Part shown: one piece after another, positions 14,343-61,036 of the stretch | How the letters are laid out: every line of letters begins with the position of its first letter | How positions within the stretch are numbered: position 1 is the first letter of the stretch | DNA from: Octopus sinensis | Lineage: Eukaryota | NCBI RefSeq assembly: GCF_006345805.1 | Contig: NC_043003.1 | Coordinates: forward strand, 96,906,001 to 96,970,000 | DNA length: 64,000 bases | Reading direction: 5' to 3' | The notes under the pieces: model-generated | Seen by the model: only the letters and a program-made list of their open reading frames with translations | The model's database searches: none | What the model was told of the DNA's origin: nothing | Made by a program: the position numbers and the translations under genes

Positions 14343-14681
14343 CCGATATACAGCCGCCTCCGATCGGAAGAGGAGCGGCCCGTTTCGCCCGTTCCGAGTT
14401 CGAGAGTAGATCGAGGCCGTCAACGTCCCGGAGCCTCCAGTCGTTAACTTTACCGGACAGAATTGCGTGTCGTTCTCCCGCTGGCGCCAGCTATCTTGAG
14501 GGAAACTTTGGAGGGAACCAGCTAATAGACGGCTCGATTGGTCTTTTGCCCCTACACCCGGTTCCAACGATCGATTTGCACGTCAGAGGTGTTTCGGACT
14601 TCCACCAGAGTTTCCTCTGGCTTCGTCCCGACCGGGCGTGGATCGCCATCTTTCGGGTCCACGGCCTCCTGCTACACCTGA
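14343..14681 (-). pseudogene. dispersed 28S rRNA fragment
   Basis: Conserved LSU blocks GACCCGAAAGATGG, GAAGCCAGAGGAAACTCTGGTGGA, CTGACGTGCAAATCG, AGCTGGTTCCCTCC.AAGTTTCCCTCA.GATAGCTGG and CCGGTAAAG. Confidence 0.9.
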
Positions 14682-48145: not shown

Positions 48146-48375
48146 GGTAGTCAAGATAAAACTCTGAGTTTCAGATGCCGAAGTGGAAATCCACAACACC
48201 ATCTCTTCGGTTATCTGGCTATTTGAAAACGTTATGAAAAAATACCGTTAAAAATGAAGGGAAATTACTCTGTTATAACTCTGCTTTGCCTGCGTACTTA
48301 TACATCGCTCGCATTTTTCGTCATAAAAATTATATAAAAATACATAAAAATATATAAAAATATATAAAAATATAC

Positions 48376-50114
48376 AACTCTTACACAACAGCATCATTAA
48401 TAATTATACTAAGGCTAGGGCACAGACATATAACGAAATTAATAAAGAAGCTAGCGTCATCGCCGCTAAACTTAAATTAGATAAAAAAATAGAAACCCTC
48501 CCCCAAAAAGAGGCCTTTATTACTATTAAAGACCACAAAGAAAACTTCTTTTCCAACCCTAAATGTAGGCTTATCAACCCAGCCAAGTCAGAACTAGGGA
48601 TTATTAGCAAAGAAATTTTAGATAAAAATAATACGAAAATTAAGACCGATACTAGGCTAGTGCAATGGTCCAATAGTATAGAAGTCGTAGACTGTTTAAA
48701 GCTATTAAGAATAAGAAAAAAGCGAGGTTTACACAATTCGATATTGTTGATTTTTATGCCTCTATCTCTAAAGAACTGCTAGATAAAGCCCTAATCTTCG
48801 CTAGTGACTTCATAGAAATTAGTACCAATGATAAGGATATAATCTTCCATGCTAGAAAGACATTACTTTTCAGTGAGAATGCAAAGTGGGTAAAAAAACA
48901 CCGACACGGAGGGCGCTTTCGATGTGAGCATGGGTTCATATGATGGGGCAGGTATCTGTGATCTAATTGGACTCTTTCTCCTAGATACCTTCGGTAAGAC
49001 ATTCCCTAACGTACATTTCGCCATCTACAAAGATGATGCCCTCGCCTTAACAGCTAATACAAATGGACCAGCACAAGATCGTTTTAGGAAGGATATTATC
49101 CAGTTAATGAAACACTTCGGACTTAGTATAACTATAGACACTAACCTGACGGTTGTCAATTTCTTAGACGTTTCCTTAGATCTTAATAATAATATTTATA
49201 AGCCTTATAGGAAGCCCAATGATAGACTAAGTTATATTAATGTAGGTTCATGCCATCCCCCTATAGTATTCAAAAATTTAGTTAAAAATATTAGTAAGAG
49301 GATTTCTAGCCTCTCATCTAATGAGGACATCTTTAATAGCGTTGCCCCAGTTTATAATAAAGCTTTAAAAGATAGTGGTTTTAGCGAAAAAATAAAATAT
49401 ACACCTATCACCAGCCCAACAATAAGGAAAAGGAATAATAGAAATAGGAAGGTCATCTGGTTTACGCCCCCTTACTCACCCGAGGTGGCTTTTAATATAG
49501 GTAAATACTTCCTAGCACTGATAGATAGACATTTTCCAGTTAACCATGCTTATAGGAAACTCTTCAATAGACACAATTTAAAAATTAGTTTTAGTTCAAC
49601 TACCAATTTTAAAAACATAATCAATCATAACATACAAAAAACACAAGAAGAAAACAGCTGTTCATGCAGGAATAAAGAATGTGCCCGCTAAATGGAGCTT
49701 GCATGTCCAAGACCATCATATATGAAGCTACCGTAAACTCTATAACCAAAAGACACCGTTTCGACGAAGAAATACGTGGGCCTGACAGAGGGTAATTTCA
49801 AGGCCAGGTTCAATAACCACACTTTGAGCTTTAGGCACTGGAACAAAAGAAAAGCGACACAATTATCCAATCATATTTGGTCTTTAAGAGATAAAGGTGT
49901 CGATTATAACATACAATGGAAGATTTTGGCCAGATGTAAGCCCTATACTAACGGCAGCGGAAGGTGCGGTTTATGCGACATGGAGAGATGGCTTATCTGG
50001 AAAAGCAGCTTAGACCCTACCACATGTCTAAATACAAGAACAGAGCTTTTCGGATCATGCCCACATGTGACTAAATTTCTGTTACGTTTTTGGTCCCCTA
50101 AAGAAAACGGATAG
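48376..50114 (+). pseudogene. PLE reverse transcriptase + GIY-YIG endonuclease, frameshifted
   Basis: ITIKDHKENF..CRLINPAKSELG, FDIVDFYASI, MGSYDGAGICD, YKDD, NFLDVSLDL, CSCR..CPL..C..IIY..YVGLTEGNFKARFNNH..CGLC..C..H; about three frameshifts. Confidence 0.9.
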
Positions 50115-50308
50115 AACATGCTTTCTGTGTTATGTCCCAAGAAGATTTTATATATTTTTATATATTTTTATATATTTTTATGTATTTTTATATAATTTTT
50201 ATGACGAAAAATGCGAGCGATGTATAAGTACGCAGGCAAAGCAGAGTTATAACAGAGTAATTTCCCTTCATTTTTAACGGTATTTTTTCATAACGTTTTC
50301 AAATAGCC

Positions 50309-50371
50309 AGATAACCGAAGAGATGGTGTTGTGGATTTCCACTTCGGCATCTGAAACTCAGAGTTTTATCT
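50309..50371 (+). ncRNA. hammerhead ribozyme-like motif in PLE pLTR (U4C core)
   Basis: AGATAA-CCGAAGA-GATG..CATC-T-GAAA-CTCAGAG-TT-TTATCT; identical copies at 48154-48216 (-) and 60878-60940 (+). Confidence 0.6.
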
Positions 50372-50577
50372 TGACTACCGAGTAATGTAACATATTGTAT
50401 AGATAAATTTCCTCTATTTACATAATATTGAGGTCTCTTTCTTTCTTTTGTTATCTTACCGTTTTATCAATATATATATATATATATATATGTACTATCA
50501 TGTAATATGATATAAGTTCAAATTCCGCTGAGGTCGATTTTGCCGTTCATTTTTCGCCGTCGACAAAATAAATACAT

Positions 50578-56785: not shown

Positions 56786-57640
56786 GCATATGTATATATA
56801 TATAGATATATAATTTTTTTAAAGATTATATTTATATATATATGTATTTATATATGAAGCGCGCGCGTAGGTGTGTCTGTAAGATCCAGGAGTGTGCAAG
56901 GTTCATGAGTGTGTGTGTGCGTGTGGAAAGTTCATAAACTGGGAACGTTAGTAACAGCCTAACGATAATTATTATACACGGCATGAGAAAATGGAGTGAT
57001 TTGAAGAAATTAGAAATATTCCTCAAAGAAATAACAACATACTATGGAATTTTGATTTGGCAGCAAGGGACAACAATGAGAACATGTCTATCCCTCATTT
57101 GGTGCTTCCGAATCAAATGTAGGATTTTCAATGATAAATATAAATTTCATAAAACACTACACCGTTAAGTTGCATAAATAAAATGAGACTCAAGAGCTAA
57201 GAAAAAATAGCTAAAAAAGGCTAACGCTCTGCATGGAATTTGATAACAAACTCAATGATACTGAAGATATATATTTGTACAAGACTTCATACTACCTCCT
57301 CCTTTTCTCTCTCCCTCACTCTCTCGGTAAGTATTTGTAGGGGTCTGAATTATAGCTGTAAGGTTGAAGTAGGCGCAGGTATGTGTGTTTTGTAAAGAAG
57401 TTTGCTTCCTATTAACACAGTTTCGGGTTCAGTTCCACATATCCCCTTGAGCAAGTGTCTTCTATAGCCCCGAGCCTTGTGAGTAAATTTGGTAAACAGA
57501 AACTGAAATAAGCTGGTTTTATATATATATATATATATATACCAGAGTAAGCACATAAATGCGAAACAAGGTGAAAAAAGGTGTACTCGAATAACAGAGG
57601 TAAAGAAATATGCTTTATTAAAAAGCAACAAAAATATAAA

Positions 57641-57686
57641 AAAACTGTTACTCAGAGTTTCACGTTCCCGTTCGTCGGACAGTTTT
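57641..57686 (-). ncRNA. compact type-I hammerhead ribozyme motif (U4C core, GUA site)
   Basis: AAAACTGT-CCGACGA-ACG-GGAA-CGT-GAAA-CTCTGAG-TA-ACAGTTTT, in a ~195-nt island (57541-57735) flanked by (TA)n. Confidence 0.8.
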
Positions 57687-57746
57687 GTTTACAATGGAGC
57701 AAGATAAAGTTATATGCAGAAATACAATTACTTTGATATATATATA

Positions 57747-57781
<35 letters not shown>

Positions 57782-57782
57782 T

Positions 57783-58190
57783 TCCCACTGCGTGGCACCT
57801 TGGGCAAGTGTCTTCCCCGGGCCGAAAAAAGCCTTGTGAGTGGATTTGATTGACGAAAAGTGAAAGAAGCACGTCGTATGTGTGTGCATGTAGGGTGGGG
57901 GGCGTGCATGTGTTTCTATATTTGCCCCCCCTCCCACTATCGTGTGACAACTGGTGTTGCTGAGTTTACGTCTCCGTGCCATTGTATTTGAATCTGTTCC
58001 CCCATTGCGCGACAACTGGTGGTGGTTTATTTACTACCCTGTAACTTAGCAGTTCGGCAAAAATAGCCGATAGAATAGATAGAAGAAATTAAAAACTGAA
58101 GTAGTGGGGTCGATTTGTTGGACAAAAACTATTCAGAGTGGCGCCCCAGCATGGCCGCAGTCCAATGAATGAAATAGGCAAAAGGTAACA
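57783..58190 (+). mobile_element. abundant tRNA-derived SINE, 5'-truncated
   Basis: TCCCACTGCGTGGCACCTTGGGCAAGTG..CCCCAGCATGGCCGCAGTC; another 5' piece at 57369-57518. Confidence 0.75.
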
Positions 58191-60673: not shown

Positions 60674-61036
60674 AACATGCTTTCTGTGTTATGTCCCAAG
60701 AAGATTTTATATATTTTTATATATTTTTATATATTTTTATATATTTTTATGTATTTTTATATAATTTTTATGACGAAAAATGCGAGCGATGTATAAGTAC
60801 GCAGGCAAAGCAGAGTTATAACAGAGTAATTTCCCTTCATTTTTAACGGTATTTTTTCATAACGTTTTCAAATAGCCAGATAACCGAAGAGATGGTGTTG
60901 TGGATTTCCACTTCGGCATCTGAAACTCAGAGTTTTATCTTGACTACCGAGTAATGTAACATATTGTATAGATAAATTTCCTCTATTTACATAATATTGA
61001 GGTCTCTTTCTTTCTTTTGTTATCTTACCGTTTTAT

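What the first reader, a model, noticed from the sequence alone, without database searches (positions are those of the whole stretch)
57541..57735. 46-nt hammerhead with CCGACGA core in a 195-nt mini-element
Seen on the minus strand: a perfect 8-bp stem I, a 3-bp stem II capped by a GGAA (GNRA) tetraloop, quasi-palindromic ACTC-T-GAGT stem III and a GUA site. The stem III design matches the 50309 family (ACTC-A-GAGT) although the flanks are unrelated. It is the cleanest test case for the U4C core.
Basis: partly seen in the sequence, partly recalled or inferred. Interest (0 to 1): 0.75.

Follow-up and report, generated by a model that had tools for sequence, protein, structure and literature searches.

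The report
C4-core hammerhead in Penelope tail stub
This is the cut-short tail of a common jumping gene whose small self-cutting RNA motif has a C where such motifs nearly always have a U; the C was already in the parent element and recurs in other families of this genome, so it is likely a tolerated, slowed cutter rather than damage to this one copy.

Summary
The motif is real and sits exactly as described (type I hammerhead, minus strand, 57686-57641, core CCGACGA). The 195 nt is not a discrete mini-element. It is a 5'-truncated 3' end (pLTR) of a Hydra-clade Penelope-like retroelement in a (TA)n tract; relatives run on into RT/endonuclease remnants. C4 was in the master: 87 of 100 listed copies have it, and the rest fit CpG decay. 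Position 4 has switched between successful masters. This lineage's youngest, intact family reads CUGAUGA, whereas the 50309 family went from U to C and is itself young (0.4% divergence). All 26 published Hydra-clade rows read CUGA; U4C is known from viroid variants. Copies do not start at the predicted cut (4 of 144 that reach it), but pile up at the hammerhead's 5' edge, in C4 and U4 families alike. So templates are intact across the site, and no in vivo cleavage is shown. Best reading: a slow, dimer-dependent ribozyme with relaxed constraint at position 4 (cleavage untested). The scan noted the same C4 core before, here and in other genomes. New variant of a known kind; interest 0.45.

The parts
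57541..57735 (-). 5'-truncated 3' end (pLTR, ending at the 'long' 3' end) of a Hydra-clade Penelope-like element, subfamily 'A'
   Evidence: 40 scored copies at 86-93% identity, 2781 candidates; shared 3' end and variable 5' ends; upstream ORF remnants 52-76% identical to intact sister ORF P0003
57679..57686 (-). Hammerhead stem I, 5' strand
   Evidence: sequence
57672..57678 (-). Core CCGACGA (U4C at 57677; N7 = C)
57662..57671 (-). Stem II (3 bp) with GGAA GNRA loop; sister subfamilies have GCAA and a mismatched closing pair
57650..57661 (-). GAA core plus quasi-palindromic stem III ACUC-U-GAGU (predicted intermolecular)
   Evidence: same design in 5 of 26 published Hydra-clade rows
57649..57649 (-). 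H17 (A of GUA); predicted cleavage between 57649 and 57648
   Evidence: by hammerhead consensus (established knowledge); cleavage not tested
57641..57648 (-). Hammerhead stem I, 3' strand
   Evidence: sequence
57581..57606 (-). Decayed copy of a bulged hairpin about 40 nt 3' of the hammerhead; intact in the family majority, broken here by three substitutions
57519..57540 (.). (TA)n target tract at the element's 3' end; a (TA)/(CA)n tract also borders the 5' end (57736-57779)
   Evidence: (TA)n preference of the Hydra clade
48160..50465 (+). Comparator, not part of the finding: 5'-truncated copy of Hydra-clade family 'B' (ORF remnant 48360-50084, HHR core CCGAAGA at 50315, inverted arm with HHR at 48210-48160 on minus); another copy has its core at 60884

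Best explanation
The 195 nt is the 5'-truncated tail of a Hydra-clade Penelope-like retroelement whose master copy carried a type I hammerhead with C at core position 4, and this ribozyme is likely a slow, dimer-dependent cutter that the element can afford because its copies are made from RNA that is intact across the cut site. Shown: PLE origin, C4 in the master, recurrence of C4 in other families, no pile-up of copy ends at the cut site. Inferred: two pLTR hammerheads on one tandem transcript pair through the palindromic stem III and cut slowly, trimming or circularising the RNA; constraint at position 4 is relaxed while the other core positions are kept. This solo, old copy likely has no partner and does nothing in the cell.
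For: PLE origin: sister ORF P0003 (727 codons, L062) is flanked by two pLTRs 82% identical to the window piece and has RWK, DKT, CxxC/CxH and (TA)n targets, as Craig et al. define the Hydra clade. C4 in the master: 87 C, 9 T, 2 G, 2 A among the first 100 of 400 matches (hand count); 16 of 21 copies picked by their 3' end alone; both CpG decay products occur (CUGA and CCAA), with CpG sites at 18% against 5.5% elsewhere. Recurrence: subfamily D 9 of 9; family B 39 of 40, 0.4% diverged, with a 703-codon open frame and a partial tandem carrying CCGA in both pLTRs, nested among older CUGA subfamilies; family E 83 of 100 (hand count). Dimer: the designed double hammerhead scores -22.9 kcal/mol against -23.9 for the cofold optimum, while the monomer fold has P = 0.007. 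Intact template: ends within 3 nt of the site in 0 of 39 (A), 3 of 61 (C/D), 1 of 44 (B) copies that reach it, and 1 of 30 upstream pLTRs. Literature: U4C lowers in vitro activity yet leaves a viroid infectious (PMC3088659); another paper says it did not affect self-cleaving capability (PMC9608096); PLE minimal hammerheads are weak and need dimers (PMC4209133).
Against: No cleavage was measured and no raw RNA reads were available. [quoted passage not shown] My test for selection on the other 16 fixed positions while C4 was held is not significant (P = 0.19 for A-D, 0.41 for B, 0.076 joint). Stem II's closing pair decayed from A-U to A.G to A.A along A, D, C. In the 195-nt context the hammerhead helices are not predicted to form. 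The lack of ends at the cut site holds for the canonical U4 family too, so it does not show that either form cuts.
Confidence: 0.58

Rival explanations
1. Dead ribozyme: U4C abolishes cutting, and Hydra-clade elements spread without it; the fold lingers as a relic or serves only as a structural or protein-binding signal.
For: Low activity of CUGA-turn mutants. No copy ends at the cut site in any family. Naiads amplify without canonical hammerheads, and Craig et al. suggest hammerheads may merely ride on PLEs. The selection test is not significant.
Against: In every master seen (A, D, C, young B, E) the only core positions that differ are 4 and 7; D, E and the older B subfamilies were partly picked by patterns that fix those positions. 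A dead motif should sooner or later lose G5, G8, G12 or A13. U4C is a change a viroid survives.
Confidence: 0.27
2. Adaptive attenuation: C4 is favoured because slower cutting leaves more intact template (or more re-ligated circles), so masters tune position 4.
For: C4 arose at least twice, probably three times (A/D, B, E), against the direction of CpG decay; the U-to-C switch in B lies on the branch to the youngest family (98/94 support); every copy must be read through the site.
Against: The most abundant young family (C) reads CUGA and appears to derive from C4 subfamily D (87/89 support only). U/C transitions are the commonest changes, so drift at a tolerant site explains the pattern. All 26 published Hydra-clade rows have CUGA.
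Confidence: 0.1
3. SINE-like short element: an internal start site just 5' of the hammerhead yields a 150-170-nt RNA that the Hydra RT copies in trans, so 'mini-elements' are a real class, though not of 195 nt.
For: 5' ends pile up within 20 nt upstream of stem I at 14, 26 and 9 times the background rate in A, C/D and B; 40 of 48 family A copies are under 230 nt.
Against: Ends spread over 40-50 nt and many are fold-back junctions with microhomology to the hammerhead's own stems. Upstream pLTRs of long copies show no wall there: 20 of 30 exceed 300 nt. RT stalling or fold-back at a structured region explains the pile-up. The window copy runs 35-45 nt past the zone.
Confidence: 0.15
4. Chance look-alike, or U4C as a private mutation of this copy.
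For: Relaxed patterns hit shuffled windows about once each; monomer fold z = 0.10; no Rfam hit.
Against: 400 exact genomic matches against 0 control; canonical CUGAUGA at the homologous place in the sister family; the same stem I and stem III letters in published Hydra-2_aMil.
Confidence: 0.01

Closest known systems
Hydra clade of C-terminal-endonuclease Penelope-like elements, closest hammerhead Hydra-2_aMil (Craig et al. 2021, PMC8557442; seen: passages, section 11, supplement parts 2, 52, 53 of 59 and searches in it)
   Same: RWK and DKT motifs, CxCX5C linker, CxxC/CxH around E and N, (TA)n targets, type I hammerhead near the 3' end with stem I ctgt/acag, stem III actc-N-gagt and GUA site.
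   Different: All 26 Hydra-clade rows of File S2 have a ctga core; here whole families have CCGA. The published octopus element Hydra-1_oBim has a different hammerhead (long stem II, acca-a-tggt). 3' region after the ORF is about 1.15 kb in the sister family.
[quoted passage not shown]
   Same: Type I, in pLTRs, mostly solo truncated copies, small palindromic helix III, predicted dimer action, weak activity.
   Different: They describe larger helix II, a G10.1-C11.1 pair and U3-A8 as the core variant; here stem II is 2-3 bp, closed by A-U or a mismatch, and the variant is U4C, not mentioned in the parts read.
U4C (CCGA) hammerheads of viroids and viroid-like RNAs (Ambros and Flores 1998, not held, known only from passages in PMC3088659 and PMC9608096)
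   Same: Same core change; reported to keep some function.
   Different: There it is a sporadic variant in a tertiary-stabilised ribozyme; here it is the majority state of several multi-copy animal retroelement families with no evident loop-loop contact.
Non-LTR retrozymes (PMC7229834, passages; bioRxiv 10.64898/2026.07.22.740005, part 1 of 5)
   Same: Type I hammerhead in a short non-coding animal repeat related to PLE pLTRs.
   Different: Retrozymes are tandem arrays of about 300-nt units; this is a dispersed solo 3' fragment with variable 5' ends that joins an ORF in longer copies.

Membership tests
Type I hammerhead ribozyme | Three helices around the core in type I order | tested here: met
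   stem III has a 1-nt loop, so 4 bp only in a dimer
Type I hammerhead ribozyme | Core C3 U4 G5 A6 N7 G8 A9 / G12 A13 A14 / A15.1-U16.1 / H17 | tested here: not met
   All met except U4, which is C in this copy and in the family master. This lowers 'canonical member', not 'works like'.
Type I hammerhead ribozyme | Site-specific self-cleavage after H17 | not testable with these tools
   No raw RNA reads; no genomic footprint at the site
Type I hammerhead ribozyme | Match to an Rfam hammerhead model | tested here: inconclusive
   No hit, but none for the canonical CUGA sister either
Hydra-clade PLE | Single ORF, RT then C-terminal GIY-YIG-type endonuclease, with RWK, DKT, CxCX5C, CxxC, CxH | tested here: met
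   Read by eye in sister ORF P0003 and in L069/L071 against section 11. Family A's own ORF is seen only as broken remnants covering residues 190-727, and 5-275 in inverted pieces of L037. Pfam gave no significant hit.
Hydra-clade PLE | pLTR / partial tandem structure, inverted 5'-truncated arms, hammerhead in the pLTR | tested here: met
   L062, L063, L065, L073 carry the pLTR on both sides of the ORF; fold-back arms in family A copies
Hydra-clade PLE | Insertion into (TA)n | tested here: met
Hydra-clade PLE | Placement in the clade by RT phylogeny | not tested
   No RT tree against published sequences was built; assignment rests on motifs
Non-LTR retrozyme | Tandem array of short hammerhead-bearing units | tested here: not met
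   Single copy at this locus; relatives are dispersed truncations
Discrete non-autonomous mini-element of 195 nt | Fixed 5' and 3' ends shared by copies | tested here: not met
   3' end fixed; 5' ends range from 36 to over 430 nt in 48 copies, none at 195

The most novel reading that the evidence does not exclude
Hydra-clade retroelements use hammerhead position 4 as an evolutionary rate switch: CCGA is an active, deliberately slowed core fixed several times in successful masters, and descriptors that demand CUGA miss thousands of working animal hammerheads (about 41 of 100 listed matches in this lineage alone, of 8203).
Probability: 0.2. Interest if true: 0.72.

Novelty: new variant of a known kind. 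Interest (0 to 1): 0.45.

Why it matters
The role of hammerheads in Penelope-like elements is still open (Craig et al.). Natural pairs of closely related masters that differ at core position 4, in both directions and in one genome, make that question directly testable: if C4 is inactive, young autonomous elements spread without cleavage; if it is active, the core consensus used in ribozyme searches is too strict. The locus itself is an ordinary dead fragment.

Tried and rejected
Rfam: no hammerhead hit in the window, in the 195 nt, or in the canonical sister. Pfam: nothing significant on three proteins. RNA evidence: no RNA holder listed and only contigs were offered, so start and end sites could not be read. 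Contigs laid show the motif in runs of several coded organisms (7 of 8 runs laid something); position 4 was mostly U in X16 (56.5 of 63.1 depth), C in X17 and X18, and showed no U row at the 10% threshold in X1, X13, X19, X20. Family C is near the likeness cut-off, so these shares are not family frequencies. Cleavage footprint: looked for in upstream pLTRs and in 168 copies picked by their 3' end; none found. Selection on the core while C4 was held: not significant. The apparent higher conservation of the hammerhead among family A copies was set aside because the copies were BLAST-selected and the T-run alignment was offset. The first lineage-B tree was distorted by flanks and redone on the homologous stretch. 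The pattern for family B's pLTR-ORF junction missed it; it was found in L195. Two key papers were not held: Lunse et al. 2017 and Ambros and Flores 1998; the first may list core variants that bear on novelty. Look-up of earlier findings by sequence gave nothing.

Full report
1. Observation. The minus strand of 57686-57641 reads as a 46-nt type I hammerhead: 8-bp stem I, core CCGACGA, 3-bp stem II with a GGAA loop, GAA, ACUC-U-GAGU stem III and a GUA site with A17 at 57649. A strict scan hit once in 20 locally shuffled windows; a relaxed one hit 0-3 times per shuffle. The same scan found three copies of the 50309-family motif (cores at 50315, 60884 and 48210 minus). The monomer is no more stable than shuffles (z = 0.10). 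Rfam has no matching model, but it also misses the canonical sister.

2. What the 195 nt is. The window lies in a 2.7-Gb animal genome; the repeats look octopus-like (recalled, not from a call). The stretch has 2781 candidate relatives; the 40 scored are 86-93% identical apart from itself. They share the 3' end, followed by (TA)n, but most run on upstream. Long copies reach broken ORF pieces 52-76% identical to P0003, a 727-codon open frame of a young sister family 'C'. That ORF is flanked on both sides by a pLTR 82% identical to the window piece. It has RWK, DKT, a CxCX5C-type linker, CxxC and CxH, the marks of the Hydra clade in Craig et al. 2021 (by motif, no RT tree built). Among all 48 genomic copies with the exact family A 3' end, lengths run from 36 to over 430 nt and none is 195. 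The finding is therefore one 5'-truncated pLTR.

3. Is C4 inherited? Yes. A pattern free at positions 4, 5 and 7 matches 400 places (control 0); of the first 100 listed, position 4 is C in 87, T in 9, G in 2, A in 2, and G5 is A in 6 (hand count). In 32 aligned copies it is C in 22, T in 8. In copies picked only by their 3' end it is C in 16 of the 21 where the core could be read. CUGA and CCAA are the two decay products of a CpG, and CpG sites diverge 18% against 5.5%. The window's 46 nt equal the family majority throughout.

4. Position 4 across masters. A wider pattern matches 8203 places; of the first 100, 41 have C, 56 U, 3 other (hand count). Three subfamilies appear: A (CCGACGA, 6.2% diverged), D (CCGAYGA, 1.9%) and C (CUGAUGA, 1.3%). 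C sits inside D at modest support (87/89; bootstrap not settled), so a C-to-U return is likely but not firm. The 50309 family B went the other way: 8 of 9 C4 rows form a 98/94 clade among U4 rows (25 rows). Its youngest form has C in 39 of 40 copies, 0.4% divergence, a 703-codon open frame (L195) and a partial tandem with CCGA in both pLTRs (L190). A further family E has C in 83 of 100 matches (hand count; its ORF was not traced). In contrast all 26 Hydra-clade rows of File S2 read ctga, and 5 share the actc-N-gagt stem III. Only positions 4 and 7 of the core differ among these masters, but the formal test of constraint while C4 was held gives P = 0.076, and D, E and the older B copies were partly picked by patterns that fix core letters.

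5. Does it cut? Folding favours a dimer: the designed double hammerhead scores -22.9 against -23.9 kcal/mol for the best cofold; the monomer target has P = 0.007; in the whole 195 nt the helices are not predicted. I looked for a genomic footprint in 48 of 48 A copies, 70 of 3115 C/D copies (the first 72 listed, two tandem neighbours skipped) and 50 of 650 B copies (the first listed); a few are duplicates and were not removed. Ends within 3 nt of the site: 0 of 39, 3 of 61 and 1 of 44 that reach it (P = 1, 0.08, 0.33); two of the three are fold-backs through stem I. Upstream pLTRs of 30 of 53 long family C copies end from 35 to over 1490 nt, one near the site. So cDNA is made from RNA that is uncut or re-ligated, in U4 and C4 families alike. 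Instead, 5' ends pile up within 20 nt upstream of stem I at 14, 26 and 9 times background (the interval was chosen after seeing the data, so the P values are optimistic). RT stalling or fold-back at the structure, or an internal start site, could explain this. No raw RNA reads were offered.

6. Literature. Cervera and De la Pena 2014 (parts 1-2 of 4 read): PLE minimal hammerheads are inactive as monomers and weak as dimers; the core variant named is U3-A8. Perreault 2011 (section 8 and passages): U4C lowers activity in vitro but leaves a viroid infectious. PMC9608096 (passages): CCGA in four variants of a viroid-like RNA, said not to affect self-cleaving capability in the viroid case. PMC9901934 (passages): CUGA-turn mutants have low activity. 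PMC6765202, PMC6155905, PMC7229834 (passages) and the 2026 preprint (part 1 of 5) added context only. Searches turned up no report of family-wide U4C in PLEs. Lunse et al. 2017 and Ambros and Flores 1998 were not held, and the 2014 supplements were not opened, so the absence is not firm. This scan's own notes report the same C4 core in this genome and in others; they are unreviewed and are not independent support.

7. Verdict. Shown: a real type I hammerhead in a truncated Hydra-clade pLTR; C4 inherited from the master; C4 recurrent; templates intact across the site. Inferred: slow dimer-dependent cutting with relaxed constraint at position 4 (0.58), against a dead motif (0.27) or adaptive tuning (0.10); a short-transcript origin of the small copies (0.15) is a separate, compatible question. 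New variant of a known kind. Interest 0.45; about 0.72 if CCGA proves an active, selected rate switch (probability 0.2).

Noticed in passing
window 57581-57606 (-); L006:1537-1562 (-), L058:3231-3256 (-), L074:1680-1706 (+), L134:405-431 (+): A bulged hairpin 40-50 nt 3' of the hammerhead (NCUC, 3-5 bp upper stem, 2-3 nt bulge, GAGN) is kept with different letters in families A/C/D, B and E (z -1.2 to -1.9, weak alone), and by eye in published Hydra-2_Amil and Hydra-2_Ajap. Candidate RT-recognition signal; not seen in the passages read.
   Followed up: partly
L210-L377: 5' truncation and fold-back points pile up at the 5' edge of the hammerhead in three families whose hammerheads differ in length.
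   Followed up: partly
L051, L061-L068, L094-L130: Two fixed 3' ends: a long end about 109 nt past the cut site and a short end about 37 nt past it, the short one typically on the inverted arm; the difference is larger than the 30-40 bp tail described for PLEs.
   Followed up: partly
window 57650, run X1 record 8: One contig has a loose end resembling a template-switch adaptor (recalled) joined one base from the predicted cut, on the antisense strand. Single contig; not evidence.
   Followed up: no
L132:300-360, L133:297-352; A third C4-core family (E) with a long stem II and its own stem I; 100 exact-pattern matches; parent ORF not traced.
   Followed up: partly
L137:308-355: A family B subfamily with a 3-nt deletion in stem II that would give a clean 7-bp helix, arising in the C4 background.
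   Followed up: no
window 14352-14659 (-): Fragment of eukaryotic large-subunit rRNA (150 bits).
   Followed up: no
window 57400-57490 and 57780-58170: SINE-like repeats flank the insertion on both sides; they match flanks of many other loci. Family name not determined.
   Followed up: no
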